Origin: a virus
IMG/VR virus record: IMGVR_UViG_3300036444_000030
Span: 5,965 to 69,964 of that record
Direction: 5' to 3' (one strand)
Length of the DNA: 64,000 nucleotides
This document shows, piece by piece, positions 9,500 through 46,560 of the stretch. The translations under genes were made by a program, and so were the position numbers. Position 1 is the stretch's first letter; the number at the start of each line of letters is the position of its first letter. Under the pieces are notes generated by a model. That model made no database searches and was not told the origin of the DNA. It saw nothing but the letters and a program-made list of their open reading frames with translations.

Positions 9500-9727
9500 T
9501 TGCTGGCCCACGGACACCCATCAGCCTGGTTCTATCCGGTCAGCAAGGTTTTTGTAGAGGCTCGCTTCGTGGTCGACAGGATCAACGCTCAAATGGCAAG
9601 CGAAGCAGCTCTTCTGCAAATGGCGATCTCCACAGTCCCAAATCAGAGCGTGAAGCCCGCCTCCACCAAGAAAGCCCTCAAGGCTTTCCAGTCGCAATTG
9701 AAGGTGCTGAACAATGGCGAGCCGTGA
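9500..9727 (+). CDS. gpT-like C-terminal part of the frameshifted chaperone
   Basis: No good start of its own; in the -1 frame of 9045-9461. Confidence 0.7.
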   Translation: MLAHGHPSAWFYPVSKVFVEARFVVDRINAQMASEAALLQMAISTVPNQSVKPASTKKALKAFQSQLKVLNNGEP

Positions 9728-12700
9728 AAGAGTCGTCGAATTTGCCGTCAAGGCTCGCGATGAATATTCGAAAGTTCTCAGGAATCTCGAGCAGCAGCAG
9801 AAGCGCCTTTCAGCTTCGGCTGCTGCTCAGGGCCGTAGAGCCGTCGTCGGTGTTGCTAAAGGTGAGATCGAGACCGCTGTCGCGAATTACAGGCGTCTCA
9901 ACAGCGAAGTTGATCGTTATCGCGCAGTCCAGGCCAATGCTGCCCGCACGGGCTCGTTGTCTGCGGCGGAAATGCGAGAACTGGGCGACACAATCAAACT
10001 GGTGCGTGACCGTTCTCGTGAAGCCATGGGCGCGTTGCAACAGAAGCGCGCGGCTCTCCAGCAAATCAACGGCGAGGCTCGTGTAGGCTTCGCGAGTTTC
10101 AGCCGGCTTGCGACAGAGATGCAGCGCGGTGCTGTGGCGTCCACGAACGAGAGCGTTTCGCTCGTCAACACCACAGCAGAACTGAACAAGCTAACCACGG
10201 CGTCGAAGAAAGCTGCCGCCGCGCAGGGTTCGCTCGGTGACCGGATGGATTCCGTAGCCAACGCGGGCGGTGGAGCCAAGAAGGGTTCCCGAGCAGGCGG
10301 CGATCCCGAAGATATTTTGGTCTATGGTTTGCGCCCGTGGCAGTTGACGAACCTTGGTTATCAGGTGAACGACGTTGTGTCGGGTCTCGCCATGGGTCAG
10401 GCGCCATTGCAGGTACTGGCACAGCAGGCCGGTCAGTTCGCGCAGATCTGGCCAAACGTCATGGTCAGCGTTGCTCGCTCTATCCCGCAGCTCGCAATGC
10501 TTGGCGTTGTTCTGGCCCCGTTCATCTCTGCGGCGATGCGCCTGAAGGAAGCCGGCGACTCTGTCGAATATTTCCAGAAGAAGCTCGCACTCTCAGCCGA
10601 TGGCTATCGTTACACCGCTGAGGGGCTCACGGAAATCACCGACAAGATCAAGGATATGGGGGTCTCGATCGACGACGCCCGTTCGCTGGTTGCCGGCTTT
10701 GCTTCCGACGGCATTTCCGGTGGCCGGTTCGCAGGTCTCGCGGACCTTGCCAAGAACCTCGATGCTGTGACCGGTGAAGGGGTTGTCGAAGCTGGCAGGA
10801 GGGTTTCCGCCGCGTTCAGAGGCTCGGTTGACGACGTCCGAGCGTTGGATCAGGAACTGAACTTCCTTACTGCTTCGCAATATGAGCAGATCAAGGCGAT
10901 GGATGCGAGCGGAAATCGCGCAGGCGCTTTGGCCATGGCGCAGGATGTCCTTCGCACCAAACTCGAGGGAACGAAGACAGAGGCAAGCGACTGGGCGAAA
11001 GCGATCAATGAGATGCGCGCCGCGTGGGATGAACTTGTCGGTGCGCTTGAGGACAGCGGCATCATTCAATTCGTGACGCGTGAGATTAACTATTTCGGTC
11101 GCGATGTGAAAAACTTCACCCGCGATATCCGAGCCGCGACCAAAGTTGTGCAGGGAGCCTTCGAAGACCAGAGCGTCGGTGACCGTATTTCTGAACTGCG
11201 GCAGGCCATCGCACTGGAAGAGAAGCTTCGGGAGGGAGGCATTTCGACCGGTTCGATGGGTATGACCGGGGTCGATAATCTCGCCGAAATGAAGACGGAG
11301 CTAAACGACCTGCTCGGCCTTCAGCGGGAAATCGCCAAGGTTGAGCGTGAGCGCAATGTCGAAACTGCTGCAATGAGCAGGGAATCGGAAGCACAGCGAA
11401 AGGCTCAGACGGATATCAATGCTGCCGTTGAAAAGGGTCTCGACAGTATGCGCGAGGAGGCCTCTGCGGTTACCCTCACCAACCGTGAGCGCTTTATTGA
11501 AGAAAAGCTGCTGAAGGCGCGCAACGACGCACTGGAACAGGCGAAAAAGCTCAATCAGGAATTCCTCGGCCTCACAAAGGAGCAAACCGAGGCCATCCGC
11601 CAGCAGGCCGGCGCGCTCTATGATGCGCAGAACCGGAACTTCGAGGCGCAGTACACGGCGGAGCGAGGCACGCCGCAAGGCCGGCAGATGGAGGAACTGA
11701 TTGCGGCGACCGTCAAGCTTGCCGAGCAGATGGGCGTCAGCGCGAAAGATTTGCTCACCGCTATGTCCTACGAGACAGGCGGAACCTTCGACCCATGGAA
11801 AGCGGGCCCCACGACGCAGAACGGTCAGCACCGCGGTTTGATCCAGTGGGGTGAACCTCAGGCCGCCAGATATGGAGTGACTGGTGAATCCACAATCTCG
11901 CAGCAGATCGAGGCGGTCGGAAAATATCTGGCAGATGCCGGCGTGAAAGCTGGTGATGGCTTGCTGCAGATTTATGCGGCCATCAATGCGGGCAATGCGA
12001 AAAACATCAATGCCTCGGACGCCAAGAACGGCGGCGCGCCTGGTACAGTCCTCGACAAGGTCTCCGAGCAGATGGGCGGTCACGAGGCGAGGGCGCAAGG
12101 GCTGCTCGCAGCGTATGCGGGAACCGTCGAACACGCGACCAAACTTGCACAGTTTGACAAGGATCGGGCGCTCGATCAGCAGGAGTATCTTACCGATTAT
12201 CAGAAGCGCGTCGAGCAGCAGAAGTTCGAACTCGACCTGATGTCCAAGTCCGCCCGCGAGGCTGCTATTCTCAAAGCCGTTCGTGATGAGGAGAACCGGG
12301 CACGGGAAACTGGACTTCAACTGACGAAAGAGCAACGCGCTGAAACGGAGCGACTGGCTGCGGAAGAATTTGACCGGAGCAACGTCAATCGCGAAGTGAA
12401 CGAACTTCTCGAACAGCGTTCCTTGTTGCTTGAGCGCATGGATCTTGCGCAATCGAGCGGCGACCAATCGCTATTCGCGTCGACGGCTACCGAACTGGAT
12501 AACGTGAACACGAAGCTCAACGAGGCTATCGCCTCCGCCATTGCCTTCTGGCAGGCGATGGGTGGCGAGGGTGCAGCCAACGCTATTAGTCAGTTGCAGA
12601 ACATGCAGATTACGATCGGTCAGTCGACCGATCGCATGAAAACGCAATTCCTCCCAACAGCGGAAGACATTAACGAAAAGCTCGCCGACATTGGTGGCAA

Positions 12701-13259
12701 TGCGTTCAGTGCCTTCGCGCAGGCCATAGCAAACGGTGAAAATGCCGCCGACGCGTTCTTCAACGCGCTGCTGCAAGGAATCTCCGAGTTCCTGATTGAG
12801 ATCGGGAAAGCTATCATCAAACAGGCTCTGTTCAACGCTTTGACTGGAGGGACGTCGTCAGGCGCTGGCGCAGGGGGCGGTATTGGCGGGCTTCTATCAG
12901 GACTCTTCGGCGCCAAGCATAGCGGCGGTATGGTCGGTGCTACGACCCAAACCCGTCGCGTTAACCCGATGGTTTTTGCCGGTGCGCAGCGATATCACGG
13001 CGGGGGTATCGTCACCGACGGCTTACGTCAGGGTGAAGTCCCGATCGTCGCCCTCGAAGGTGAAGAGGTTCTGACCGAGAACGATCCGCGTCATTCTGCG
13101 AATGGCGGCGGCGGTAAAGCCGTCAATCTGAAAGTGGTCAACGCGTTCAATCCTGAAGAGGTGCTGGAAGCTGCGTTGTCCAGCGTTGCGGGGGAACGGA
13201 TATTGACCAACTGGATGACCCGAAATCAGAACAAGGTCAACGGTGCTCTCGGTCGATAG
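9714..13259 (+). CDS. Tape measure protein with internal lysozyme-like domain
   Basis: 1181 aa, Ala-rich helical; NLGYQVNDVVSGLAMGQ motif; AMSYETGG...RGLIQW segment; C-terminal HSGG/YHGGG/GEEVL. Confidence 0.95.
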   Translation: MASRERVVEFAVKARDEYSKVLRNLEQQQKRLSASAAAQGRRAVVGVAKGEIETAVANYRRLNSEVDRYRAVQANAARTGSLSAAEMRELGDTIKLVRDRSREAMGALQQKRAALQQINGEARVGFASFSRLATEMQRGAVASTNESVSLVNTTAELNKLTTASKKAAAAQGSLGDRMDSVANAGGGAKKGSRAGGDPEDILVYGLRPWQLTNLGYQVNDVVSGLAMGQAPLQVLAQQAGQFAQIWPNVMVSVARSIPQLAMLGVVLAPFISAAMRLKEAGDSVEYFQKKLALSADGYRYTAEGLTEITDKIKDMGVSIDDARSLVAGFASDGISGGRFAGLADLAKNLDAVTGEGVVEAGRRVSAAFRGSVDDVRALDQELNFLTASQYEQIKAMDASGNRAGALAMAQDVLRTKLEGTKTEASDWAKAINEMRAAWDELVGALEDSGIIQFVTREINYFGRDVKNFTRDIRAATKVVQGAFEDQSVGDRISELRQAIALEEKLREGGISTGSMGMTGVDNLAEMKTELNDLLGLQREIAKVERERNVETAAMSRESEAQRKAQTDINAAVEKGLDSMREEASAVTLTNRERFIEEKLLKARNDALEQAKKLNQEFLGLTKEQTEAIRQQAGALYDAQNRNFEAQYTAERGTPQGRQMEELIAATVKLAEQMGVSAKDLLTAMSYETGGTFDPWKAGPTTQNGQHRGLIQWGEPQAARYGVTGESTISQQIEAVGKYLADAGVKAGDGLLQIYAAINAGNAKNINASDAKNGGAPGTVLDKVSEQMGGHEARAQGLLAAYAGTVEHATKLAQFDKDRALDQQEYLTDYQKRVEQQKFELDLMSKSAREAAILKAVRDEENRARETGLQLTKEQRAETERLAAEEFDRSNVNREVNELLEQRSLLLERMDLAQSSGDQSLFASTATELDNVNTKLNEAIASAIAFWQAMGGEGAANAISQLQNMQITIGQSTDRMKTQFLPTAEDINEKLADIGGNAFSAFAQAIANGENAADAFFNALLQGISEFLIEIGKAIIKQALFNALTGGTSSGAGAGGGIGGLLSGLFGAKHSGGMVGATTQTRRVNPMVFAGAQRYHGGGIVTDGLRQGEVPIVALEGEEVLTENDPRHSANGGGGKAVNLKVVNAFNPEEVLEAALSSVAGERILTNWMTRNQNKVNGALGR

Positions 13260-35020: not shown

Positions 35021-35111
35021 CACAAGACCCCGATCAGTAAAAGGATCCGAAGCGTTGACAGCAGCAGGAACCACGCGGCGAGCCCAAGCGCTGCGCAAAC
35101 GAGAAAAGCCC

Positions 35112-35354
35112 TCATCGCGCGTACCTCGATTGCTGGTTTGCCCGTAAACCGGTCTCCTCGACTAAACAACGAATGCTGCCGTCGACGAAGCGTTCGAGAA
35201 GCTCGCCACGGAACTCGGACAGAGGTGTGCCAGGGGCGACTTCATCCCGCATTGGAACGGCGGTTTCATGTATCCACTGGCGGTAAGCGGGGTTACGTCT
35301 AGAATGGGTGCAAATATCTCGAGCGCTACGAGCGATGTCGGCTTCGGTCATCAT
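35112..35354 (-). CDS. Hypothetical protein
   Basis: Coupled ORF. Confidence 0.55.
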   Translation of the reverse strand: MMTEADIARSARDICTHSRRNPAYRQWIHETAVPMRDEVAPGTPLSEFRGELLERFVDGSIRCLVEETGLRANQQSRYAR

Positions 35355-36342: not shown

Positions 36343-36623
36343 GCTTCTCCCCCATCAAACAGATGAAATACGAGGGTGCCGTTCCGCAGAAGAAGTGTCG
36401 AAATGAAGCGAGCGTCAGCAAGCGCTGGAAATCCGGTTCCCACGACGTGGATAGTGCGGCGGGTTTTGGGACGACCCGGATCGCATCGATACCAAATCGC
36501 AATCTGCCCAGGGTATTGAACGGCGGCGCTGAGGATTTCGGATTGAGCCGGGCAATCGAGTTCTACGCAGTCGGCAATATCTTCGAAATTAATCGTGGCC
36601 TTGTGGACGGTAAACATTTTCAT
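36339..36623 (-). CDS. Conserved phage hypothetical protein
   Basis: IHVVGTG...FIST...LVFHLF; RBS AGGAG. Confidence 0.7.
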   Translation of the reverse strand: MKMFTVHKATINFEDIADCVELDCPAQSEILSAAVQYPGQIAIWYRCDPGRPKTRRTIHVVGTGFPALADARFISTLLLRNGTLVFHLFDGGEA

Positions 36624-36643
36624 CGTCTCCTAAACAGAATTGC

Positions 36644-36672
36644 ACGATAAAAGTGAAATTAAATCGCGTCAA
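36644..36672 (-). promoter_or_regulatory. Sigma70-type leftward promoter flanked by two operators
   Basis: TTGACG-17 nt-TATCGT; operators at 36641-36657 and 36679-36695. Confidence 0.7.
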
Positions 36673-36698
36673 CTGTAATTCTCATTAAAAGTGAAATT

Positions 36699-36902
36699 CT
36701 ATGCGTTTGAACTGATCTTCTGAGGCCTTTTGACGGGGCAGGCGGGCAACCGCTCAAACTGGGTATTCCAGCCAAGTCCATTCTTTGGATCGGCGATGAA
36801 CTTGGACATGACGTTCTTGGCGGCATAAGCGCTCGGCGCTGAGACCTCGAATGTCTTGCGACTGCGACCGACGGCAAACCAGAACTGTTTCTGTGGGCTC
36901 AT
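36699..36902 (-). CDS. Hypothetical protein
   Basis: RBS GAGGA; 67 aa. Confidence 0.5.
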   Translation of the reverse strand: MSPQKQFWFAVGRSRKTFEVSAPSAYAAKNVMSKFIADPKNGLGWNTQFERLPACPVKRPQKISSNA

Positions 36903-36914
36903 CCGAGCGTCCTC

Positions 36915-36949
36915 TTGACTGTCACATTCAACGTGAACAAAATAGGAAC
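36915..36949 (+). promoter_or_regulatory. Rightward promoter with phage operator and LexA box
   Basis: TTGACT-17 nt-CAAAAT; GTCAC-N7-GTGAA at 36921-36937; GAAC-AAAATAG-GAAC at 36935-36949. Confidence 0.75.
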
Positions 36950-37237
36950 ATGAAACACCGTCGCGGCATAAACCTGGTTCCGGATTCCTTTCGGGTGATC
37001 TACGAAGGGACGGTGAGTCGTGATCTGTATCCGACGCTCAATGCCTATCCGGAGTGGTACGTGTTCGGAGGCCGATGCTCCCGTTGTGAGCGGGAAGGGT
37101 GGCTCGATCGCCGGGAGTTGGTTCGGCGCTTCGGTAACAACGTGTTCCTCAACCAGCTGCGTCCGAAGCTGCGCTGCATGAAGTGCGGGAATAAGGGCAA
37201 CAACAACTGGATCATCGGGAAGCTGGCGAGGGATTAG
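36950..37237 (+). CDS. Small Zn-finger protein, probably leaderless and SOS-controlled
   Basis: CSRC...CMKC; ATG directly follows the LexA box. Confidence 0.75.
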   Translation: MKHRRGINLVPDSFRVIYEGTVSRDLYPTLNAYPEWYVFGGRCSRCEREGWLDRRELVRRFGNNVFLNQLRPKLRCMKCGNKGNNNWIIGKLARD

Positions 37238-38094
37238 TCAACGGCTGGCGACACGGGCCATTAACTCGGGCAAGATGATGTGCCACATCGTGGCGTCGTA
37301 GACCGGTTCACCCGGTGCGAATTGCATCGGCGCCATGTGCGACATGTAGAATTTCGCGGTCGCAACCAGGTTCTCGTCTGACAGCGCGCGCATCTCACCT
37401 CGTTTCCTGCGTGACCAGTCTTCGTATTGTTGCGCTCGTGCCTGCGCTTCCGGCGTCAGTTTAAAGGTCATCGAGTTTCTTCCGTTCAAATGCGTCTGCC
37501 AGCAGAGAGCCTGCGAAATAGGGCCAAACGAGTGATTTCCAGAAACCGTGTTTTTCGGCGAAGCCGTCAGCGATGCCGGCGTAAATAATGCAGAGGAGAA
37601 CGGAGGTCATCGGCAGGTTCCCCGTAAAACAGACTCCTCGAGAGCGCTGGCTGCGCGGCGGAAATGCCCGCACGCGGTGACGCATTGATGGTCGTCATCC
37701 CAAGACGCAGGGATATCGGAAACGACCGCTGCCAACGGTCCCAATGCTTCCCGAAGCAGTTCCACTTCCGCAACGAGATCAGAATGCTCGTAGCACTTTT
37801 GCATCGATCGCAGGTCGCCGCCGAACTGAGCATGTGCTTTTAGGACATCAGGATGGAACTTCATTCCCCACTCCTGATGTTGGTGTGTTTGTGGAGAATG
37901 CGGGGAGGAATCTCCTCGTGATGTGCTGTTTCCACGTATTGTATCGGACCATCGATTTTATAGACGGTGCCGTAAGACGCAGACTTGTCGCCTTCAATCT
38001 CCTTTGTCCTGAGGTAATAGGACAAGATTCTGTATCCGAGGAAACCTGCCAACAGGCCGAGCGGAAACAAAATCTGATTTAAAATCTCGCTCAT
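37238..38094 (-). CDS. Four short coupled hypothetical ORFs (37238-37471, 37461-37610, 37607-37864, 37861-38094)
   Basis: Overlapping start/stop codons; two have hydrophobic N-termini. Confidence 0.55.
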
Positions 38095-38096
38095 AT

Positions 38097-38759
38097 CTAG
38101 CCCTCCTGCTTTGCGGGTGCTGCGGGGAGAGCGCGCATAATGGCGTCAACAATAGGCTGCAATTCGTTAGATGACCTATTAGCGTTTTCAACGCGGATCA
38201 TGATGTCATTCACCATCACCGGCTCGCCTTTACGCCATCCGTCCTGCTTCAAGCAGTAGATGAGAACAGAACCGCTATTTGACGCCACCTGCCAACCTTC
38301 CGCCACGTCCTGCACCTGTGCGGAGAGGGCGGAAACCATCGTTCGAATTTTGGCGAGGGTTTCCCGGTCCTGCTCGTCGTTAACCAGAACATTGTCCAAC
38401 TCCGCAAGAATGGCTTTCACAGCCACGGATGGCGCGGTTGGGGCGGCGTAGACTGGGCGATACTCGGTGCCAGGAAGCTTGTCCTCTCTTGGCCCATCGG
38501 GGCAATGCTGCCACTGGTCGCCGACCGTCCATCGCGGGTTTCGCCACTGCCAACCCACGGGCTCCGCAGCGGACAGGGCGGCTTCGAGGCGGTCGGCAAT
38601 GGCCTGCGACATACCGCCACCGATATTCGAGCTAAGAAACGATGGATCGTCAGGGAGATCAAATAGCTTTAGGCGCGCGCCACGCTTCATAAGCTGAATG
38701 AGGTTTCGAAGATGATCGTCAACGGTCGTTTCTGATGCTTGCGTTTCGGTGGTCATCAT
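38097..38759 (-). CDS. Mosaic phage early hypothetical protein
   Basis: ALSAAEPVGWQ, YRPVYAAP and LPAAP linker motifs. Confidence 0.65.
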   Translation of the reverse strand: MMTTETQASETTVDDHLRNLIQLMKRGARLKLFDLPDDPSFLSSNIGGGMSQAIADRLEAALSAAEPVGWQWRNPRWTVGDQWQHCPDGPREDKLPGTEYRPVYAAPTAPSVAVKAILAELDNVLVNDEQDRETLAKIRTMVSALSAQVQDVAEGWQVASNSGSVLIYCLKQDGWRKGEPVMVNDIMIRVENANRSSNELQPIVDAIMRALPAAPAKQEG

Positions 38760-38802
38760 CGTTCCGGTCTCCGCAAATCGGCAATCTGTAGCTTGTTGCG
38801 GT

Positions 38803-39471
38803 TCATAGCGCGCTCCTTTTCCAAAGAACGTTGCCTTCCAAGTCCTCAATGCTGACGACGTGGTCATTCAGCCGGCCGTGGTCCTCAGGTTTGCATTTGT
38901 CGCTCGGCTGGATCGGATAGAACCCGCCGTCAGCCGTTCTCATTATCCAGACAGTTGGGAGGAGAGAGGTGAGGGGCTCAAAGCGTCCGTCGTTGAATTC
39001 CTCAACCGGCCTCACCCACAAAGAGCCGTCATCAATGCTGCGATAGACTGCGACCTCGCGCATGTCAGCAGATGCGCCGGTATCGTACTCGAACCACTTC
39101 TCCGCCTGCATCTTTCCGACGCCGAGCAGCACGTATTCGGTGCCGCGCTTCTTGTGTCGATGAGTTGGGGGAGCCGCTTTGCTGACTTCGACGATGGCCG
39201 CTTCGGCTTGAGGTCGATAGGCGTGTGACCATTTCTCCCAAAAGTAATCGCCCATCTCGGATTCATCGAATTGACCGCGCAATTCAGGATCAGCTTTAGC
39301 TATCGCTCGCCCCACTCGGTCAACGAGAGTTGTGTTAGATTGTGCTGCTACAGCGCTGTGCTTCAACACCAGCTCGACGATGTCATTCTTGTCGACAGCA
39401 TAGCGTTCGCCATCAAACCAGCCTGCCAGCAGTTCATCCACGTCTTTCGAGATTTCGTCTCTGTTTGTCAT
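38803..39471 (-). CDS. Hypothetical protein with DUF1653-like segment
   Basis: THRHKKRGTEY...VYRS..DG.LWVRP.EEF.DGRF. Confidence 0.7.
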   Translation of the reverse strand: MTNRDEISKDVDELLAGWFDGERYAVDKNDIVELVLKHSAVAAQSNTTLVDRVGRAIAKADPELRGQFDESEMGDYFWEKWSHAYRPQAEAAIVEVSKAAPPTHRHKKRGTEYVLLGVGKMQAEKWFEYDTGASADMREVAVYRSIDDGSLWVRPVEEFNDGRFEPLTSLLPTVWIMRTADGGFYPIQPSDKCKPEDHGRLNDHVVSIEDLEGNVLWKRSAL

Positions 39472-39703
39472 AGTCCACCGTTGATCCTGATTTGAATTTC
39501 TTGCTGCTCTCGATCGACCACGCTGGCGCCCAAAAGCCGCCTTCGGCTTTCACGAGCACCTTCTTCGGGATCCAGACCTCGTGGCCGTAATACTGGAAGA
39601 GGTATGCTCGGTGCGTCTCGTTGAGGCACGGGCCGAGGCCGCGATAGCCTGCCGGCACCTCGTCGAGTTCTTTCGCTTTGACTTGTTTGTCGGGGATCAT
39701 CAA
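39434..39703 (-). CDS. Hypothetical protein
   Basis: ET.RAYLF...EVWIPK motif. Confidence 0.55.
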   Translation of the reverse strand: MMIPDKQVKAKELDEVPAGYRGLGPCLNETHRAYLFQYYGHEVWIPKKVLVKAEGGFWAPAWSIESSKKFKSGSTVDYDKQRRNLERRG

Positions 39704-39709
39704 CGAATC

Positions 39710-40297
39710 CTATCCCCTGACATCTGCAAGACTGCGGCGGAGATCGGCCAGCCACCGGTTCCGTAGTGCGACACGATGGATTTCGTCGGCGATGTGTGTT
39801 TCGTAGTAACTGATGTCGCGAAGCGCTTCTTTTCGTGTTTTTACCAACCATTGGGCTCCGGTAAGTTCGACCGGTGGCTCACCAGCGTATGTGTCAATCG
39901 AGATGGTGAGCTGCTGGAGCATGAAATCGCGAATGCCTTCGGCTTCTGTTGTCCAGCCGCGGACCTTTTGCAACATGCTCTCGTAACGAGCGTTACGTTC
40001 CTTCCGCTCAGCTTCCCGCTGTTCAAAATTAGCTGTGAGTTCTCTGAAATCATTGGCGGCCCGCGAGTCGCACTGCTCAGGCGTCAGATTTTCCAACACT
40101 TTGAGAAGCTCGTGTGCTGCCGTAAGACGTGTCTGATAAAACTCGACTTCCGGCTCAAACTGATCTGGAATTGGCGCATCAAAAGGAGCGTCACGCATCG
40201 TAATGCATGCTCCCATACCTCTGGCACATTGGAGAGCGAACTGCTTCAAGGTGGTGATTTCGCCGCTTTCAACGGCAGCAGTGAATCCAGTTGGCAT
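39710..40297 (-). CDS. Conserved phage hypothetical protein
   Basis: MPTGFTA...FALQCARGMGACITMRD; RBS GGAG. Confidence 0.75.
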   Translation of the reverse strand: MPTGFTAAVESGEITTLKQFALQCARGMGACITMRDAPFDAPIPDQFEPEVEFYQTRLTAAHELLKVLENLTPEQCDSRAANDFRELTANFEQREAERKERNARYESMLQKVRGWTTEAEGIRDFMLQQLTISIDTYAGEPPVELTGAQWLVKTRKEALRDISYYETHIADEIHRVALRNRWLADLRRSLADVRG

Positions 40298-40474
40298 GAA
40301 AATTCTCCGTTGAACGAACCTGTTGGGAAACCGGCATCTCTGACCTGCCGGAAACCAAAGAGGCTCATTTCGCCATCCAGCGCTCAAAGCGCCGGCCGAC
40401 GTAGAAGAGGACGCTGCTCCAGCAGAAACCGAGGATCAGATCGGGAAGATTGTTGAGGAGGGCGATGACCACGG

Positions 40475-41341
40475 TCAGCTCCCGAAGTTGGAGACGATGC
40501 CGCCGCGCGCCTTCATGACCGAGCGGATGAATGTCTTCAGTTCGGCCTGGTCAGCGACAGCGTCCTTGTTGACGTAGACCTTCGCCAGCCATGTCAGCGT
40601 CGACTTGTCGGAGAACCAACCCTGCAGGTTCTTCTTGTAGGTCTTGCTCGGGATTTCAGCGTAGGCGTAGAGCGGCTTGCCCTGCGGATCGACAGCATCG
40701 TCGAAGTCCCGGTCGTTGACGCCGACCAGTGACAAGCTTTCGCCGTAGAACTCGTCAGCCGATCGAACCAGTGTGTTGCCGAGTGCTGCCGGCACCAACA
40801 TGCAGGTCGTCTGCTCGTTGCTCACCGAGGATAGTGCAATATCACCGGACTCGTCAGTCTGACGGACCGGAGCATAATCAGCGTCTTCCGAAATGAAGTT
40901 CTGCCAGATGAGCCAAGCGCCCGACCCACGTTCGCCGAGTGTAATCGAATACTTCTTCGGGTCGCTCTCGAGGTCGCCTATGTCGTCGACTCCTGAGTTC
41001 TTGCCGCAGAGCGCGTGCAGATATTCACGGTGAAGATCGGCGACGGGTACGAACTTGGCAGCATTGGCCGGCTCGGTGCGCTTGAGATAGGCCAGTCCGT
41101 CAGGCTGACCAACGAAGGCATCGCATTTGCCCTGAAGGCTGAGCTGGATGTTGCCCCAGGTACCACCCGTGTCTTTGACAACGTCAACGGTCAGGCCTGC
41201 TCCTTTCGCTTCGGCGCGGATCATTTCACCCGCTGCGGCATAGGGCTGGTCGGCGGCGCCAGTGCAAAGCGTAAGTGCGGCGGCCGGACTGGTGAACATG
41301 CAAGCGAGCGCGAGCGCCGCTCCGATGAAAAGCTTCCTCAT
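40475..41341 (-). CDS. TAXI-family TRAP solute-binding-like periplasmic protein
   Basis: Signal peptide; CTG...Y, TGGT..N, QPD, LHREYLH, GERGSG motifs. Confidence 0.75.
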   Translation of the reverse strand: MRKLFIGAALALACMFTSPAAALTLCTGAADQPYAAAGEMIRAEAKGAGLTVDVVKDTGGTWGNIQLSLQGKCDAFVGQPDGLAYLKRTEPANAAKFVPVADLHREYLHALCGKNSGVDDIGDLESDPKKYSITLGERGSGAWLIWQNFISEDADYAPVRQTDESGDIALSSVSNEQTTCMLVPAALGNTLVRSADEFYGESLSLVGVNDRDFDDAVDPQGKPLYAYAEIPSKTYKKNLQGWFSDKSTLTWLAKVYVNKDAVADQAELKTFIRSVMKARGGIVSNFGS

Positions 41342-41376
41342 GTTGTCTCCTGTTGGGTTGAATTGTCGGTTGGAAG

Positions 41377-41790
41377 TCATCGTATGCTCCGCACCGGTCT
41401 GAGGTTGCGGCCGGTCGCCCCGCGCTTGGCGGGATAGCTGCGGATTGCATGACGAACGGTGGTATGGTCACGACTGCCGAGGTAGGCGCCGATCTCGACA
41501 AGGCTCGACGTGGTTCTGCGGACCATCCAATAGCAGCAGGCCTGCCGCACGAGGACGACGTGCCTTTGCATGCGGTCGCTCGTTATCAGGTCGGCAGAAA
41601 GCCCTGTACGCCTGCAGAACAGTGCGAGGATGCGTTCCTTCGTCGTCATCAGGCGCGTAGGCTCGACGACGGGTGCGGCCAACTTCGGTTTCGCGGCTAT
41701 GTTGACGACCTTGGGTGCGCCGTAGATGCGCCGACGGACATCGGCATAGCGCGCCAGCAGCTCCTCGGCTGTTTTTGGTTCAGGGCTCAT
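41377..41790 (-). CDS. DnaA C-terminal (domain IV-like) HTH protein
   Basis: RQACCY...SLVEIGAYLGSRDHTTVRHA. Confidence 0.88.
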   Translation of the reverse strand: MSPEPKTAEELLARYADVRRRIYGAPKVVNIAAKPKLAAPVVEPTRLMTTKERILALFCRRTGLSADLITSDRMQRHVVLVRQACCYWMVRRTTSSLVEIGAYLGSRDHTTVRHAIRSYPAKRGATGRNLRPVRSIR

Positions 41791-42300
41791 AGCAGCCCCA
41801 TGATCGAGGCAGCCGAGGCGACGGAGAGGGTGAGGAGTAACGTCACCGTGCTTTCGATCACCGCGTTGATGCGATCTGCTGCGCCCCGATGACGGTCGAA
41901 ACAGGCGGTCGCACGTTCGAGAAGTAACTGTGCGTCGCGGACATCGCGTTTAAGGCTCATCACTGATCCCTCTCGAAACGGCCGCTGAGCACGCCAAAGA
42001 GGAATGCGGTCAGAGCGCCGGTTGCGAATGCGTAAAGAAGCATGCTCATTTCGAATTCCTCGTAAAACGTGAAAGTCAGGGCGCGAAATTGAGCCGCCCG
42101 GCTGCAAGCTGACGAGCAATGCGGCTATTCTGCCTCGTTGACGAATGCGGATACTTTCGACCCGTGCGACGGGTTTTCGGGCGGCTGAAATCGGCTGCCC
42201 GGTGCAGTGGAACGACCTGCATGCCGCGCGCCAAGTCGATAGTGGAGCCCAACGAGGCGAGGAGGGCGGTTGCTGCGGAAAAAATCGATCGTCTCATCAT
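41787..42300 (-). CDS. Short hypothetical ORFs (41787-41960, about 41957-42049, 42076-42300)
   Basis: RBS-preceded ATGs downstream of a leftward promoter near 42335-42363. Confidence 0.5.
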
Positions 42301-42436
42301 GGTCACGTCTCCTTTGAATTTCACGTTTAATGAGCAATATTGCACGATATTGCAGGAAGTCAATCGAGAAGTGAAAATAATTGATATTTCTCCGAGGCCC
42401 CGGTATCCCTATTTCTCCGAGGGCAGGGAGACAGGG

Positions 42437-42907
42437 ATGATCAGATTTCTCCGAGGTGCGCTTGTTGTCGCACTTCTCGCAAGTTGCACGTCAACGCCGG
42501 GCACCGTGGATGATGTCCACACCGGTATGAAGGGCAAGCACTCCGCTTTCTATTCCGTTCATACAGGCCTTCTGGACAACCTGAACGCAGCGGCAATTAT
42601 AGGCACTCAGAAAGGTGTTACCAAATACGGGATCGCCGTCCGCTACACGTCAACCGGCGTCGGATGGGCATCCTTCCATGAAGCCTGGTCCTTCGGTGAA
42701 AAGTTACCCTATGCTGTAGTACGCGAGCAGTTGGCTGGCTGCGGCGGTGGAAATTGTTCGATCATTGAAGAGGGGTCGATCGAATTGACCAAGGACCAGT
42801 TCGAGCAAGCCGCTAAGACAGGTTTCGAATTCAAACTAGTCGGCAAAAACCGCAGCTTTGTGGCTAAAATGCCTGCATCGGTGTTTCAGGAGGCCTTGGC
42901 CCAATGA
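42437..42907 (+). CDS. Moron lipoprotein, 156 aa
   Basis: MIRFLRGALVVALLASC lipobox; RBS GGAG; opposite strand to the flanking early genes. Confidence 0.82.
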   Translation: MIRFLRGALVVALLASCTSTPGTVDDVHTGMKGKHSAFYSVHTGLLDNLNAAAIIGTQKGVTKYGIAVRYTSTGVGWASFHEAWSFGEKLPYAVVREQLAGCGGGNCSIIEEGSIELTKDQFEQAAKTGFEFKLVGKNRSFVAKMPASVFQEALAQ

Positions 42908-43392
42908 TGAGATTTCTCCGAGGGGTTTTTCTGGCAACAGTTGTTTCCACTTCCGCCTTGGCGGCGGAGCCATTCTCGGCATCAGATTTTTCGCCCATGG
43001 TCAAATTTTCGGTGGACGGTCCCGCTCATGATCCTGCCTTCCTTTCAAAGATGGCGAACATTCTCGTGAAGTATGGGGCCACCGAGGACGACGCATATGC
43101 GACCATTAAAACACTTCTTCCTTTTGATCCGGCAGATATGAGCAACCTCGTACTTGCCTCGGGACTGCTAAGTGCAATGGACCGAACCTCCACGAGAACG
43201 GCGTCGCGCCGTGTTGCGAAAGCGTTTTCCGGTGACGTGGATGGCGTGAGGGCGCTGGATGACGAACTGAATTTCTTGACGGCCGACCAGTACACCGAAA
43301 TGAAAAAACTGGAAGACGCCGGCGCGATACAAGGCGCAAAAAGGTTGGCCCTAGGTCTCTTGGTGAAGAGACTGGAAACAGCTTTCGAGTGA
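42904..43392 (+). CDS. Exported protein homologous to a segment of the tape measure protein
   Basis: Sec signal MMRFLRGVFLATVVSTSALA; 22/29 identical core to the tape measure segment encoded at 10797-10883. Confidence 0.85.
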   Translation: MMRFLRGVFLATVVSTSALAAEPFSASDFSPMVKFSVDGPAHDPAFLSKMANILVKYGATEDDAYATIKTLLPFDPADMSNLVLASGLLSAMDRTSTRTASRRVAKAFSGDVDGVRALDDELNFLTADQYTEMKKLEDAGAIQGAKRLALGLLVKRLETAFE

Positions 43393-43687
43393 TATGTAGA
43401 TTTCTCCTAGGTGCAGATTTCTCCGAGGGCGTTTTAACGTAGTCGGATACAGGTGTTGTAGAGCGACCGGTTTTTCGCGACGAAATCCGCCATGATATGT
43501 GATAACATAACACATGAAATAAAAATTTCACGATAGAGTTGAAATTTATTTTCTTAGATGATAGGGCTTGTAATATGCGCCGATTTGCGTTTCCCTAATC
43601 GTGCCGTGACGGAGTCGCGGTGCGGGTTGAGAGCCGCCAAATTGGAGCGCACAAGCGCCTTAGAGAACCGTCTACGGGCGCTTTTTC

Positions 43688-43768
43688 TATGGTCGGGCGC
43701 AATGGGAAGCCGTGAGGCTTGCCGGTACTCCAATTCCGGTCTCTCAACCCGTTGACGCCCGGCCACCA
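43688..43768 (+). ncRNA. C4-type antisense RNA (P1 C4 / P4 CI family)
   Basis: ATGGTCGGGCG...CGCCCGGCCACC closing stem; AGCC-GTGA-GGCT hairpin; CTCCAATT and CTCTCAACCC complementary to flanking target boxes. Confidence 0.85.
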
Positions 43769-43814
43769 CGATTGAGAGCGTGGAACCGGGTTCACCTCAA
43801 TTGGAGAACTCACT

Positions 43815-44357
43815 ATGCAAAACGTTCTTATCCCTGCAGAGTCCCTCATTGATTTTGACGATGAGCCGCGTCTTCTCGATACCGAATTGGCTTCCCATCT
43901 CGAATTCAAACGTTCGTACGATATCCGGGAACTAATCAACCGCAATCGAGAGGAGCTTGGGATGTACGGCCCACTACCCGTACGGCGCGGGCAGTCTAGA
44001 GGGCAAGCATTCACGGCCTATTATCTAAACGAAGGGCAGGCGCTTGTAATATGCGCACTATCCCGCACGCCGAAGGCCGCGCAAGTCCGCAAGCTCCTGA
44101 TTGACGTTTTCATGGCATACCGGCAGGGCAAACTTGTTCACGTCAAAGAACATCGCCGTTCATTGCCGCAACGGCGACGGAATCAAATCCAATTCTCATT
44201 TGAGGAGAACTTGGAGACGGTTTACGCCAGCACTCAATCCACCGAAGAACTCATGGCCGGGCTCATGACGCGGCTGCAAAATCTGGAAATAGCGGCCTTT
44301 GGCGAACCTCAGAACGCACGGCAGATTGTGCCCACGGGTCACATCAGGGGCTACTAA
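43815..44357 (+). CDS. Antirepressor-like DNA-binding protein
   Basis: IRELINRN.EEL, YYLNEGQALVIC..SRTPKAAQVR..LIDVF; directly after the C4 RNA. Confidence 0.78.
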   Translation: MQNVLIPAESLIDFDDEPRLLDTELASHLEFKRSYDIRELINRNREELGMYGPLPVRRGQSRGQAFTAYYLNEGQALVICALSRTPKAAQVRKLLIDVFMAYRQGKLVHVKEHRRSLPQRRRNQIQFSFEENLETVYASTQSTEELMAGLMTRLQNLEIAAFGEPQNARQIVPTGHIRGY

Positions 44358-44542
44358 TGGAGACGAGCCTATTGCGAGTCGGCGACGTGTCGAAAGTCAC
44401 CACGTTATCCCGCGCCGAGATTTACCGTCGCATTCGTGCGGGAACCTTTCCCAAACAAACCCGCATCTCGTGGCGGTTTGCAGTCTGGAAAAGCAGCGAC
44501 ATTGAGAAATGGATTGCTGAAACCACGGACCAATCAAAATAG
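44357..44542 (+). CDS. AlpA-family regulator / excisionase-like protein
   Basis: LLRV.DV...T.LSRAEIYRRI..GTFPK...AVW..SDIEKWI. Confidence 0.9.
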   Translation: METSLLRVGDVSKVTTLSRAEIYRRIRAGTFPKQTRISWRFAVWKSSDIEKWIAETTDQSK

Positions 44543-44546
44543 ACTA

Positions 44547-44576
44547 AGCCCGGCCTTTGAAGCCGGGCTTTTCTTT
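44547..44576. terminator. Terminator between convergent units
   Basis: AAGCCCGGC-CTTTGAA-GCCGGGCTT followed by TTCTTT. Confidence 0.75.
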
Positions 44577-45750
44577 AACTCATAGCGTTCGATAGCGCCG
44601 CAAGCCCATACAACACAAGGCCAATCGACACGGGCATGAAATACCATTTCCCGCGCAAGCGTTCCCATAGACCTGGATCTGGCGCATACGTCGCTTCGCT
44701 CGAGACCATTGGCGCGGTTGCAGGCTGAACGACAGGCCGCGACACGCCCACGCTGTGCAGCGGCTTGGAGCCGCGCGACACTGCAACCTTGCAAGCCGGC
44801 ATAGGAGCGCCGGCAGCATTCGGAACAGACACAATCGCTTGCCCAGTTCCAAGTCCTGCAATGTCGGCAGCCGTGATATTGCCCGGCATGGTATCGGCTG
44901 CAGCCTTCAAGGCCTTTTGGTGGACCGGAGTCGCGCCGCGCAAGGCGTGCTGAATCCGCGTCGCCAATTGCCCGCTAATGACGTGCGGCAGGTCCGACGG
45001 CGCTTGAGTCACATAAATGAGGCCGACTCCCTTGGATCGAATTAGCCGCGTGATTTGCTCTATCCGCTGCACAATGGCCGGGCTTGCGCCGTCGAAAACC
45101 AAATGCGCTTCATCGATCAAAACCATGAGTCCAGGCGCGCCAGCGTCGCCAATCTCGCCAAGGCCGCGATAGAGCGAATCCAGCACATGCGCGACAAATG
45201 CACCATAGAGGCCGGGCAGGTGGGTTAGTCCTGAGGCCGCATAGACCGTTATAGCTTTCGTGTCGCGTGGATCATGCCGGGCATTGCCGAACGCCCACGT
45301 AGCGCCGCGCTCGAGACGCAACATGGCACGTTGAACGGCAGCAACCGAAACAGGCGATATCAGGCCATAGGAGTCGGAAAGGTTCGCCCGCGTGGCGTCA
45401 TTCAATAGCTGGCGCAAGTCCTGCAGCGTGGCGACGGCGCGGCCGATATCTTCCGCCCATGCAAGGGCAATCGCCAACGCGCCCGCTTGCGCCTCAGACA
45501 GATTAAGGGCACGTGCGATCAAGTCCGCCCCCAAATCATCGATGCGCATTTGCGGGCATATCAGAGTTGAGCCTAGCGACTCCAAGTCGCCTTTCGCGTC
45601 CAGCACCAAAACCGGACACGGGCAGCGTTCCGCGATCGCTCCTAGTGTCGTGGTTTTACCCGTGCCCGTAGCGCCAAAAATGCCGACATGGCGCGACAGA
45701 TACCGATATGGAATCTGTGCGCCTGGTCCGATGGAAAGGGCGTAAGTCAT
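44575..45750 (-). CDS. HerA/FtsK-like ATPase (DUF853-like) with C-terminal membrane helix
   Basis: GATGTGKT, DAKGDL, IDEAHLVF, RLIRSKGVG...TQ.P.DLP, RIQHALR. Confidence 0.88.
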   Translation of the reverse strand: MTYALSIGPGAQIPYRYLSRHVGIFGATGTGKTTTLGAIAERCPCPVLVLDAKGDLESLGSTLICPQMRIDDLGADLIARALNLSEAQAGALAIALAWAEDIGRAVATLQDLRQLLNDATRANLSDSYGLISPVSVAAVQRAMLRLERGATWAFGNARHDPRDTKAITVYAASGLTHLPGLYGAFVAHVLDSLYRGLGEIGDAGAPGLMVLIDEAHLVFDGASPAIVQRIEQITRLIRSKGVGLIYVTQAPSDLPHVISGQLATRIQHALRGATPVHQKALKAAADTMPGNITAADIAGLGTGQAIVSVPNAAGAPMPACKVAVSRGSKPLHSVGVSRPVVQPATAPMVSSEATYAPDPGLWERLRGKWYFMPVSIGLVLYGLAALSNAMS

Positions 45751-46560
45751 TACCGCCCCCAACGTCTGACTTGCGCGGCAACGTCTCGGCCCTGAATAAC
45801 AAGGGGTTCGCCTGTCAATTCAACACGAAAAATGGCAACGCAGCGGGTGCCGGAACAATCTGTCTCGGATAGTTCCCAGTTGGACGGGAAAACCGCTTTA
45901 CCGGTATCCGTCGCTTTCCAGAGACGTTCAGGGTTGTTGCAGGGGAACGCTATTTTCATATCTGACCATGGCAAGGCTATATCTCTGACTCCGTTGGCGT
46001 GAAATTCCCGCAACGGCCGGATTGCGCCAGCCGTTCAAGGAACGTCACGCCGTGGCGTAGTCGCTCATGCTTTGGTGAAGGAAGGCGGGCAGGGCGGTTT
46101 CATCGCTTGACTCGTCCGCTGCGTCATATTGATCGCGCCATGTGGTGGCGTCGTCGCCCTGCAAAAAGAATTCGCGTCCGTCCGCTTCATTGGTGACGGC
46201 ATAGGCCAGCCCATTGCCATATGAGGTGATAGCGAAGTTTGCGATATGCCAAGTTACCTGTTTCATGGTTGCCCCTCAATCGGCCATGCCGTCATGGCGT
46301 TGATAGTGGTGCGGGTTTTCGGCCATGGCCGAAGGGTCCGAGTCTTCGTTTTCCTCAATCTCGGTTTCAGCCTGGAAATGCAGCGCTGCCCGATTCAATT
46401 CGGCGAGAAAGTCCGTTTCGCTTTCCGCGCAATAGTGCATGAGGTTGCAAAGCAGGTCCGATATCGCGTCACCCTCATCAGTGCGGGTTACCCTTATAAA
46501 GGCGTCAATTGCTACCCGCGCCCATTCTGCCCGTTGTGTGTTGTCGACTTCCCGAAACAT
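45750..46560 (-). CDS. Three short early hypothetical ORFs (45750-46013, 46045-46266, 46276-46560)
   Basis: Tight packing with RBSs; last has AISDLLCNLMHYC motif. Confidence 0.65.

What the first reader, a model, noticed from the sequence alone, without database searches (positions are those of the whole stretch)
42904..43392. Exported stand-alone copy of the phage's own tape-measure domain: candidate decoy superinfection-exclusion protein
Seen: behind a Sec signal peptide, this 162-aa ORF aligns by eye over about 130 aa with the tape measure protein (TMP) 32 kb away. The core RRVAKAFSGDVDGVRALDDELNFLTADQY (43207-43293) matches TMP RRVSAAFRGSVDDVRALDQELNFLTASQY (10797-10883) at 22/29 positions. 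The upstream S.DG...L...G...DDA and downstream G...GA...A..L...LE patterns also match. Synonymous sites differ, which argues against a fresh duplication. The TMP segment follows a hydrophobic stretch (IPQLAMLGVVLAPFISAAM). The gene is on the opposite strand to the early arm, paired with a lipoprotein, and next to the C4/antirepressor unit. Known: siphophage TMPs are ejected to help form the DNA entry conduit, and some Sie proteins act on TMP. Inference: a periplasmic TMP fragment could poison the incoming channel or occupy its host partner. I do not know of a described system like this.
Basis: partly seen in the sequence, partly recalled or inferred. Interest (0 to 1): 0.92.

Follow-up and report, generated by a model that had tools for sequence, protein, structure and literature searches.

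The report
Exported stand-alone tape-measure module in prophage
A prophage carries a small accessory gene for an exported copy of the membrane-inserting part of phage tail tape-measure proteins; it belongs to a rare, unnamed protein family that may block DNA injection by other phages, though this has not been tested.

Summary
ORF 42904-43392 (+, 162 aa) aligns with the resident tape measure protein (TMP, 9714-13259) at 32% identity over 155 residues (E 2e-15). Its signal-peptide core aligns with the TMP's hydrophobic helix. AlphaFold2 gives a confident eight-helix bundle whose only clear structural matches are predicted lambda-GpH-type TMPs.

The reading "copy of the phage's own TMP" does not hold. 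The protein is no closer to its own TMP (rank 21 of 84 TMP segments) than to foreign ones. A sister provirus has a 96%-identical TMP but a 46%-identical small protein. Two near-complete relatives lack the gene.

It belongs to an old, fast-evolving family of leader-bearing stand-alone copies: 14 of the 17 short clusters carry a leader. All named members are "hypothetical", from Agrobacterium or Rhizobium. The gene sits in a swappable cassette with conserved leader-coding 5' ends and 12-mer borders.

A role in blocking TMP-mediated genome entry is plausible, given recent T4 Imm-TMP and lambda TMP-ManYZ work. It remains inference: I obtained no expression, localisation or binding evidence. The scan's first-stage notes also list an unchecked similar case in another genome (e1-6179804).

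The parts
42904..43392 (+). Gene for the 162-aa exported stand-alone TMP-module protein (stop included)
   Evidence: ORF. BLASTP to the TMP gives E 2e-15. phmmer family search. AF2 model has pLDDT 91.6.
42904..42963 (+). Predicted Sec signal peptide (residues 1-20, cleavage A-L-A|A-E read by eye). It aligns with the TMP hydrophobic helix.
   Evidence: Sequence. The alignment starts at residue 7. Residues 1-25 have low pLDDT. The 59-bp leader-coding segment is 86% identical to the L003 counterpart.
42979..43389 (+). Mature eight-helix bundle domain (residues ~26-162)
   Evidence: AF2 places helices at 30-161. The best BFVD match is a GpH-type TMP (TMq 0.76, rmsd 1.9 over 138 columns).
42437..42907 (+). 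Upstream, translationally coupled lipoprotein gene (156 aa, lipobox L-L-A-S-C). It is a separate, swappable cassette.
   Evidence: It has 17 homologues. AF2 predicts a beta-sandwich, pLDDT 87.9. No family name was found.
42385..43428 (+). Six copies of the 12-mer ATTTCTCCGAGG (starting at 42386, 42411, 42445, 42912, 43400 and 43417; one or two letters differ in some). Two lie before the cassette, one in codons 3-6 of each gene, and two after the stop.
   Evidence: 7 matches in the window at up to 2 mismatches, 6 of them here, against 2.55 expected. The same motif sits at cassette borders in the sister provirus.
9714..13259 (+). Resident tail tape measure protein gene (1181 aa)
   Evidence: Pfam TMP_2 E 1e-24 at residues 210-394. 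Flanked by major tail, chaperone-like and tail-tip genes.
10479..10967 (+). TMP hydrophobic helix (aa 256-274) plus the helical domain (to aa 418) that is homologous to the small protein
   Evidence: The profile of the short family matches TMP 264-418. The same module maps to lambda gpH 128-282.
43685..43770 (+). C4 antisense RNA gene downstream on the same strand
   Evidence: Rfam RF01695, 66 bits, E 1.3e-10.
43815..44357 (+). Ant-like (antirepressor/Rha-like) ORF. Weak matches only.
   Evidence: phrog_63 E 4e-4. Phage_pRha E 0.0093, below cut-off.

Best explanation
What it is (shown). The gene encodes a Sec-leader-bearing protein of about 140 mature residues that folds as an eight-helix bundle. 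It is a diverged paralogue of the module 'hydrophobic helix + helical domain' found inside lambda-type siphophage tape measure proteins (own TMP residues 264-418; lambda gpH 128-282). It belongs to a small, old, fast-evolving family of stand-alone copies of this module that keep an N-terminal leader or anchor. In this prophage lineage it is an accessory cassette. The leader-coding 5' ends and flanking 12-mers are conserved, and the mature parts are exchanged.

How it most likely works (inferred). The protein is exported to the periplasmic face of the inner membrane. There it mimics the membrane-engaging module of incoming tape measure proteins and interferes with formation of the DNA conduit, giving superinfection exclusion at the genome-entry step. 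It could do this in two ways. It could capture the incoming TMP's hydrophobic helix or bundle domain. Or it could occupy the envelope site that this module needs.

Its targets are more likely a range of phages with this TMP type than specifically its own phage.

The confidence given is for the whole statement including the inferred function. The descriptive part alone I hold at about 0.95.
For: Homology:
- BLASTP E 2e-15 over 155 aa, including leader on TMP helix.
- phmmer finds 76 long TMP-like hits among 93.
- All 23 phage-record hits lie in annotated TMP genes.
- A profile of the short family maps to lambda gpH 128-282 (24.8 bits) and to T1 TMP 304-424 in PDB 9l9p_B (E 1.3e-6).

Fold:
- AF2 pLDDT 91.6, pTM 0.82.
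- BFVD matches at E<=1e-3: 3, two of them named GpH-type TMPs and one unnamed. Named rows down to rank 26 are mostly TMP, GpH or minor-tail proteins.

Architecture kept on both sides:
- 84 of 84 TMP segments have a hydrophobic 15-mer (mean Kyte-Doolittle >=1.9) within 45 aa before the domain.
- 27 of 30 short rows have an N-terminal hydrophobic leader by eye (16 pass my 1.6 threshold). 3 have none.

Real family under constraint:
- 17 short clusters at 50% identity, all intact.
- One clade of the 27 leader-bearing rows is not rejected. The constrained tree scores 28.3 lnL units better, p-AU 0.78.

Accessory and swappable:
- GC 0.53 against 0.57 for the window.
- Absent from two 96-100% complete relatives that have the TMP module.
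- DNA homology with the sister provirus stops at the first 12-mer and resumes only over the two leader segments.

Known biology:
- T4 TMP has a TM helix followed by a helical bundle domain. The exclusion protein Imm binds that bundle (preprint 10.64898/2026.03.06.709160, abstract and sections 9-10 read).
- Lambda TMP is the only phage protein robustly labelled by TurboID-ManZ at the inner membrane during injection (PMC13190303, passages).
- HK97 gp15 and TP-J34 Ltp exclusion is escaped through tail or TMP changes (PMC10883804 and PMC3594210, passages).
Against: - No evidence of expression. The only runs holding the stretch look like DNA (see Tried and rejected).
- The consensus scan found no rightward sigma-70-like promoter before 42437 and no terminator after 43392.
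- Two operator-like TTCAC-N7-GTGAA sites (42320, 42359; 2 mismatches each) lie in the 136-bp upstream region. The cassette could therefore be repressed in the lysogen rather than expressed.
- The protein does not track its cognate TMP (46% against 96%) and is not closest to it (rank 21 of 84). This weakens a model of specific co-assembly with the resident phage's TMP.
- The family is rare (1-5 members per 90% cluster) and absent from close relatives.
- No PADLOC, Pfam or NCBIfam defence family matches.
- The domain profile shows no sequence similarity to T4 gp29, so the T4 parallel is one of architecture only.
- Lambda's ManYZ-bypass change A304V lies about 20 residues beyond the mapped module, not in it.
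Confidence: 0.45

Rival explanations
1. An exported helical-bundle protein with an envelope role that is not anti-phage. Examples are lysogenic conversion that changes envelope properties, or a helper used late in the phage's own cycle, such as preventing progeny from ejecting into lysing cells or debris.
For: It shares the export leader and accessory-cassette position with other unrelated exported proteins: the lipoprotein here and a different protein in L003. This suggests a general 'exported cargo' slot. Operator-like sites upstream would fit lytic-cycle expression. No defence family matches.
Against: This does not explain why the TMP membrane module in particular, with its most conserved motif (L-D-x-E-L-N-F-L-T), is retained across the family. 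Fast divergence with swapped alleles fits conflict better than housekeeping.
Confidence: 0.25
2. A membrane-active, pore-forming protein used as a toxin or lysis-timing factor. The neighbouring exported protein would act as its modulator.
For: The T4 preprint likens the TMP bundle domain to pore-forming colicin domains (section 10). The module is the hydrophobic helix plus bundle, and it is coupled to a second exported gene.
Against: - The neighbour is not conserved.
- The lysis cassette elsewhere (22386-24840) has its own endolysin and, by eye, a spanin-like pair.
- The leader looks cleavable, which would remove the hydrophobic helix.
- No colicin-like chain appears among the 50 best VIA-align rows. 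That absence is inconclusive.
Confidence: 0.07
3. A decaying remnant of a foreign tape measure gene left by recombination. It would have no function, and the open frame and leader would be fortuitous.
For: Phage genomes are mosaic. The family is rare, and close relatives lack the gene.
Against: - 30 short rows from 17 clusters at 50% identity are all intact. They keep the same length class (150-233 aa), and 27 keep a leader.
- There is a coupled RBS.
- The fold is confident and compact.
- The same conserved positions are kept as in TMPs.
- The eight close variants at 88-100% identity have no stops.
Confidence: 0.03
4. The lipoprotein and the leader-bearing helical protein form a two-component spanin (outer-membrane lipoprotein plus inner-membrane helical protein) used in lysis.
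For: A lipoprotein gene overlaps a gene for an N-terminally hydrophobic, all-helical periplasmic protein.
Against: - The gene order is the reverse of the usual inner-then-outer order (recalled knowledge).
- The pair lies 18 kb from the lysis cassette, which has its own candidates (by eye).
- In L003 the partner is not a lipoprotein.
- The helical protein is a globular bundle homologous to TMPs, not an extended coiled coil.
Confidence: 0.02

Closest known systems
Lambda-type tape measure proteins (Pfam TMP_2, PF06791): module at lambda gpH 128-282, own TMP 264-418, T1 TMP 304-424
   Same: Homologous over the whole length, including the hydrophobic helix. Same predicted helical-bundle fold and the same most-conserved motif.
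   Different: It is 162 aa rather than ~850-2300 aa. It lies outside the tail operon on the other arm. It has a cleavable-looking Sec leader in place of an internal helix. It is below the Pfam cut-off (14.5 against 30.2 bits), so it cannot measure a tail.
T4 Imm acting on the TM-helix + helical-bundle module of the T4 tape measure protein gp29 (preprint 10.64898/2026.03.06.709160)
   Same: A phage-encoded envelope protein proposed to stop genome entry at the TMP pore-forming module. The module architecture (TM helix followed by a globular helical bundle) matches what is duplicated here.
   Different: Imm is a multi-helix inner-membrane protein unrelated to TMP. Here the candidate inhibitor is itself a copy of the module. 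No sequence similarity exists between this domain profile and T4 gp29. T4 is a myovirus.
HK97 gp15 moron (YebO-like inner-membrane exclusion protein)
   Same: A prophage accessory gene whose envelope-located product blocks genome entry. Sensitivity depends on the incoming phage's tail/TMP region (PMC3594210 passages; PMC10883804 passages).
   Different: gp15 derives from a host YebO-like gene and sits inside the tail operon. No homology to TMP was reported in the passages read. The function here is untested.
TP-J34 Ltp lipoprotein (Gram-positive exclusion protein whose target is the tape measure protein)
   Same: An exported, prophage-encoded protein acting outside the cytoplasmic membrane on TMP-dependent entry. 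I saw only the title of Bebeacua et al. 2013 in reference lists and a summary passage in PMC10883804.
   Different: Ltp is a lipoprotein with a different domain make-up (recalled, not checked here). It is not a TMP paralogue.
SNIPE (DUF4041-GIY-YIG membrane nuclease, PMC13190303)
   Same: It exploits the TMP and the inner-membrane entry site as the point of attack.
   Different: It is a cytoplasm-facing nuclease that cleaves incoming DNA. There is no nuclease here, the location is periplasmic, and PADLOC finds no match.

Membership tests
Tape measure protein (Pfam TMP_2 PF06791) | Scores above the Pfam gathering threshold | tested here: not met
   14.5 bits against a cut-off of 30.2, E 0.029, residues 75-133 on profile 149-207. 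The resident TMP scores 87.8 bits.
Tape measure protein (Pfam TMP_2 PF06791) | Sequence homology to the TMP module by pairwise and profile search | tested here: met
   BLASTP E 2e-15. phmmer gives E values down to 7.9e-12 for long TMP-like proteins. phrog_24 (TMP) E 1.6e-5.
Tape measure protein (Pfam TMP_2 PF06791) | [quoted passage not shown] | tested here: not met
   It is 162 aa, about 30 kb from the tail operon, beside the C4/Ant unit.
Superinfection exclusion proteins acting at TMP-mediated entry (gp15 / Ltp / Imm type) | Located in the cell envelope | tested here: inconclusive
   The Sec-type leader was read by eye, and 27 of 30 family rows have a leader. No predictor and no experiment were available.
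Superinfection exclusion proteins acting at TMP-mediated entry (gp15 / Ltp / Imm type) | Expressed from the repressed prophage or early in infection | not testable with these tools
   No RNA holder was listed, and the laid runs look like DNA.
Superinfection exclusion proteins acting at TMP-mediated entry (gp15 / Ltp / Imm type) | Blocks genome entry without blocking adsorption, with escape through TMP changes | not testable with these tools
   Needs plating, adsorption and DNA-entry assays.
Moron (accessory transcription unit in a prophage) | Present or absent among otherwise related phages, with deviating base composition | tested here: met
   Absent from G004 (96% complete) and G005 (100%); present in G000 and G002. 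GC 0.53 against 0.57.
Moron (accessory transcription unit in a prophage) | Own promoter and terminator | tested here: inconclusive
   The consensus scan found no rightward promoter-like site before 42437 and no terminator-like site in 41900-43900. The scan covers only sigma-70 consensus and simple hairpins.
Two-component spanin | Lies in or next to the lysis cassette; conserved pairing of an inner-membrane component with an outer-membrane lipoprotein | tested here: not met
   It is 18 kb from the endolysin gene at 22386. The partner in L003 has no lipobox.
Pore-forming colicin-like helical bundle | Structural similarity to solved colicin pore domains | tested here: inconclusive
   None appears among the Foldseek PDB rows (no match at E<=1e-3) or the 50 best VIA-align rows (best Z 6.8).

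The most novel reading that the evidence does not exclude
Prophages of Rhizobiaceae carry a periplasmic mimic of the tape measure protein's own membrane-insertion module. It acts as a dominant-negative inhibitor, or site competitor, of genome injection by other siphophages. This would parallel the restriction factors that animals derive from viral structural genes (recalled knowledge). The gene is one cargo in a shufflable array of exported proteins. The alleles are exchanged through conserved leader-coding segments and 12-mer border repeats, giving rapid diversification in an arms race.
Probability: 0.33. Interest if true: 0.85.

Novelty: new variant of a known kind. Interest (0 to 1): 0.6.

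Why it matters
How long-tailed phages get DNA across the inner membrane is a long-standing open question, as is what their tape measure proteins do there. It is only now being resolved by work on T4 TMP-Imm and on lambda TMP-ManYZ-SNIPE.

A natural, soluble, exported copy of the TMP 'helix + bundle' module would be a ready-made probe for that step. It could reveal what the module binds in the envelope.

If it excludes phages, it would be the first exclusion protein built from the target itself. None turned up in the five literature searches listed under Tried and rejected, where I saw only listings and the starts of abstracts.

The conserved-leader, swapped-cargo cassette is also a clean example of how prophages diversify exported accessory proteins.

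Tried and rejected
Genomic context of other family members:
- Scans of genome contigs with the protein and with alignment A2 found none.
- Viral contigs with the single protein found none.
- Metagenome contigs with A2 found none.
- tblastn in plasmids found none.
- As a result only one other context (L003/G002) could be read. The 'tracking' test rests on one pair.

Expression: no RNA holder was listed. Runs X1-X4 (one sample) were laid on 25501-45500. They gave even depth over all 30 bins in X1 and X2, so they look like DNA. This says nothing about expression.

Binding: complex prediction with the TMP domain (A4, residues 13-159) and the mature small protein (A1, residues 22-162) scored 0.00, 'no answer'. 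It is no evidence either way.

Fold of the small protein in solved structures:
- Foldseek PDB gave no match at E<=1e-3.
- VIA-align wide gave best Z 6.8, generic helical.
- The ESM Atlas gave no usable hit.

Link to the lambda ManYZ-bypass site: the module maps to gpH 128-282. A304V lies outside it, and the weak second match at 294-314 scores 0.1 bits. I rejected this as evidence.

Homology to T4 gp29: profile scores are negative.

Function of the lipoprotein neighbour:
- No Pfam, PADLOC or NCBIfam family.
- The AF2 beta-sandwich has its best VIA hit in Bartonella IalB (3dtd_A), Z 7.8, rmsd 3.5 over 114 residues. That is within the range of chance arrangements.
- Foldseek gave nothing at E<=1e-3.

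C4 RNA as regulator of the 12-mer: the C4 loop is complementary to the Ant ribosome-binding site, not to the 12-mer (by eye).

Multiple origins of the short family: the free quick tree needs 5 changes (at least 2 forced by starred branches). The AU test does not reject one clade. I named the group after seeing the tree, and long branches are in play. I make no claim of recurrent capture.

Tree rows: 9 of 123 sequences were left out of the tree. P0001 is identical to the window protein. I dropped P0026 as identical to the window TMP, but later showed it is not letter-identical. The rest were dropped for a best-domain E above 1e-20 or fewer than 120 profile positions.

Literature: five searches listed no paper describing an exported TMP-derived exclusion protein. 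I saw only listings and the starts of abstracts. Cumby et al. 2012 (PMC3430355) is not held. Supplementary files were not consulted.
Full report
**Setting.** The window is bases 5965-69964 of a 69,964-base IMG/VR provirus record that CheckV rates 100% complete. The left arm (+ strand) is a lambda-like siphophage structural module. It has portal, major head, a major tail protein with an Ig-like domain, a chaperone-like protein, the 1181-aa tape measure protein (TMP, 9714-13259) and J-like tail-tip proteins. The early genes run leftward to about 42300. Then comes a short rightward block:
- a lipoprotein gene (42437-42907);
- the ORF in question (42904-43392);
- a C4 antisense RNA (43685-43770, 66 bits);
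- an Ant-like ORF and a small excisionase/AlpA-like HTH protein.

- BLASTP of the 162-aa product against the resident TMP gives E 2e-15, 50/155 identical, residues 7-158 on TMP 264-418. The alignment therefore starts inside the leader, which lies on the TMP's hydrophobic helix (aa 256-274).
Only 7 of the 22 shared residues use the same codon.
- An exhaustive phmmer search of 1.84 billion representatives returns 93 hits at E<=1e-3. Of these, 76 are 388-2364 aa and match at the equivalent internal place. The other 17 are 150-233 aa.
- In 50,697 phage records, the 23 tblastn hits are all Rhodobacter capsulatus phages and all lie under annotated tape measure genes, at 31-35% identity.

**What the module is.**
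- The TMP carries Pfam TMP_2 at residues 210-394 (E 1e-24). The small protein touches the last quarter of that model only weakly (E 0.029, below cut-off).
- A profile built from short proteins plus TMP segments (A3) maps to lambda gpH residues 128-282 (24.8 bits against that one sequence). It also maps to residues 304-424 of the T1 TMP chain 9l9p_B (E 1.3e-6; that entry belongs to PMC11945409, seen as a listing only).
- AlphaFold2 with a 31-row alignment gives mean pLDDT 91.6 and pTM 0.82. Helices lie at 30-35, 44-56, 61-71, 76-93, 97-107, 113-122, 127-138 and 142-161. Residues 1-25 are at low confidence.
- The only clear structural matches are predicted GpH-type TMPs in BFVD (best TMq 0.76, rmsd 1.9 over 138 columns). 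Solved structures gave nothing specific.
- In all 84 TMP segments I extracted, a strongly hydrophobic 15-mer lies within 45 residues before the domain.
- The unit is therefore 'hydrophobic helix + ~135-aa helical bundle'. The stand-alone proteins are that unit with the helix in the position of a Sec leader or anchor.

**A family, not a one-off.**
- Of the 17 short clusters, 14 have an N-terminal leader or anchor. These are P0003-7, 17, 18, 25, 28, 29, 47, 55, 83 and 84.
- The other three (P0022, P0024, P0092) have none. At least one of them (P0024, on an 893-base contig) may be a fragment.
- Every name given by a source is 'hypothetical protein'. The organisms named are Agrobacterium species, Rhizobium wenxiniae and unclassified Rhizobium.
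- Clusters are tiny, at 1-5 members each.
- In a quick maximum-likelihood tree of 114 domain rows (30 short, 84 TMP), the window protein sits in a starred group of 8 close variants. Nineteen short rows lie on one side of the midpoint and the short rows have long branches.
- Holding all 27 leader-bearing rows together gives a better likelihood than the free quick search (by 28.3) and p-AU 0.78. A single old origin is therefore not excluded.

**It is not 'the phage's own' domain in any special sense.**
- By BLASTP bits its own TMP ranks 21st of 84 TMP segments (61.6 against 73.2 for the best).
- One other provirus (G002; loci L003 and L012) has both genes. Its TMP is 96% identical to the window's (1052/1091), but its small protein is only 46% identical. 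That protein's cognate TMP ranks 5th of 84.
- Two relatives with the same TMP module, 96% and 100% complete, have no short homologue. Two fragments (63% and 37% complete) cannot be judged.
- So the proposed test 'homologues track their cognate TMP' fails in the one pair available. The gene behaves as an accessory.

**Cassette anatomy.**
- Window and L003 are 88% identical in DNA from 40315 up to 42398, which is the first 12-mer.
- Homology then resumes only over 42379-42481 (12-mers, ribosome site and leader of the first exported gene; 82.5%) and over 42907-42965 (leader of the TMP-like gene; 86%). The mature parts do not align in DNA.
- In L003 the upstream gene encodes a different exported protein with the same R-F-L-R-G start. 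Two leftward genes are inserted between two 12-mer copies.
- The 12-mer occurs six times in the window, only here. It occurs four times in G002, only at these borders, and not at all in the four other related records.
- One lipoprotein homologue (P0107) even carries the leader typical of the TMP-like proteins.
- The lipoprotein family has 17 members, in Agrobacterium, Paracoccus and Tabrizicola where named. It mostly does not share contigs with the TMP-like family, judging by longest-contig lengths. There is one coincidence at 25,909 bases, P0117 and P0006.
- I conclude that the two genes are independent cargos of one exported-protein slot, not an obligate pair.

**Mechanism.**
- Shown: homology, fold, leader, family, accessory status and lack of co-variation.
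- Inferred: export, time of expression, and function.
- The best-supported reading is interference with genome entry by mimicry of the TMP's membrane module. Three lines of recent work make this concrete:
  - In T4, the TMP has a TM helix followed by a globular helical bundle with a hydrophobic patch that holds the helix. A truncated TM+bundle construct purifies from membranes as a dimer. The exclusion protein Imm binds the bundle and disturbs its interplay with the helix. The authors state that predicted TM helices are common in TMPs of siphoviruses too (preprint, sections 9-10).
  - In lambda, the TMP is the only phage protein robustly labelled from ManZ during injection (PMC13190303).
  - gp15 and Ltp exclusion is escaped through tail or TMP changes.
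- A leader-cleaved copy of the bundle in the periplasm could hold the incoming helix, pair with the incoming bundle, or occupy the module's envelope site.
- Rapid divergence with allele swapping fits a conflict with varied incoming phages rather than fidelity to the resident TMP.

**Against this reading.**
- There is no expression evidence.
- No recognisable promoter or terminator was found.
- Operator-like palindromes lie upstream (54 matches in the window against 27.5 expected).
- The family is rare.
- No known defence family matches.
- There is no sequence link to T4 gp29.
- The lambda ManYZ-bypass site lies just outside the module.

**Rivals.** These are an envelope role unrelated to defence, a membrane-active toxin or lysis factor, a dead remnant, and a spanin pair. 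They are weighed in the Rival explanations section. The last two are poorly compatible with the family data and with the separate lysis cassette.

**Novelty.** Exclusion at the TMP step is known. An exported paralogue of the TMP module as the agent did not turn up in the five literature searches I ran (listings and the starts of abstracts only). No Pfam, NCBIfam or PADLOC model names the family. The scan's own notes hold an unchecked first-reader report of a similar exported TMP-domain gene in another genome (e1-6179804). I did not test that case.

**Verdict.** This is an undescribed accessory protein family with a specific, testable mechanistic hypothesis. Function is unproven.

Noticed in passing
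window 42385-43428; L003 8323-8334, 9481-9492, 9536-9547, 10009-10020: The 12-mer ATTTCTCCG(A/G)GG marks cassette borders and encodes R-F-L-R-G in the leaders of unrelated exported proteins. DNA homology between the two proviruses breaks exactly at these repeats and leader segments. In L003 two copies flank an insert of two leftward genes. It may be a recombination linker or a regulator site; which one is undecided.
   Followed up: partly
L003 8386-9006 (-) and 9008-9400 (-): Two leftward genes are inserted in the sister provirus at the cassette border. Both have hydrophobic segments. The 206-aa product has weak, below-cut-off matches to HEPN_RiboL-PSP (E 0.0097) and carries an R-N-A-I-A-H stretch. 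It is a possible membrane-bound abortive-infection gene, which would make this locus a defence hotspot. PADLOC found nothing.
   Followed up: partly
window 42437-42907: The lipoprotein family has 17 homologues, in Agrobacterium, Paracoccus and Tabrizicola where named. It has invariant Cys102 and Cys107 in a G-C-G-G-G-x-C loop and a predicted beta-sandwich (pLDDT 87.9). The best solved match is Bartonella IalB, Z 7.8, which is not decisive.
   Followed up: partly
window 42076-42300 (-): A small leftward ORF (74 aa from the internal M-M-R-R start) has a signal-like N-terminus and a basic tail. It is conserved in L003 (8014-8283). No family was found.
   Followed up: no
window 43685-43815: The second C4 hairpin loop (C-U-C-C-A-A-U-U) is exactly complementary to A-A-T-T-G-G-A-G at the Ant-like gene's ribosome-binding site about 9 nt before ATG 43815. 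The same 8-mer also occurs about 40 nt upstream of C4. This is as expected for a P1-type immI unit (by eye).
   Followed up: no
window 44575-45762 (-): A 395-aa P-loop ATPase with a C-terminal hydrophobic tail matches PADLOC mad8 (E 5.5e-19) and HerA models (E down to 1.2e-11). It lies directly after the Xis-like gene.
   Followed up: no
window 23659-24058: Within the lysis region there is an 88-aa TM + coiled-coil-like ORF. An overlapping 106-aa ORF in another frame carries a lipobox L-L-S-C. By eye this looks like an overlapped spanin pair.
   Followed up: no
window-wide, e.g. 30540, 36641, 36679, 50982: TTCAC-N7-GTGAA palindromes give 54 matches at up to 2 mismatches, against 27.5 expected and a maximum of 38 in 100 shuffles. 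Many have AT-rich spacers. Two weak copies (42320, 42359) overlap a leftward promoter-like site upstream of the cassette.
   Followed up: partly
window 38100-38600: In runs X1, X2 and X4, a contig at about 40x depth (against 6-10x elsewhere) matches only short pieces here, with three skips between 38131 and 38560 and loose ends on both sides. A related sequence at higher copy number seems to exist in that sample.
   Followed up: no
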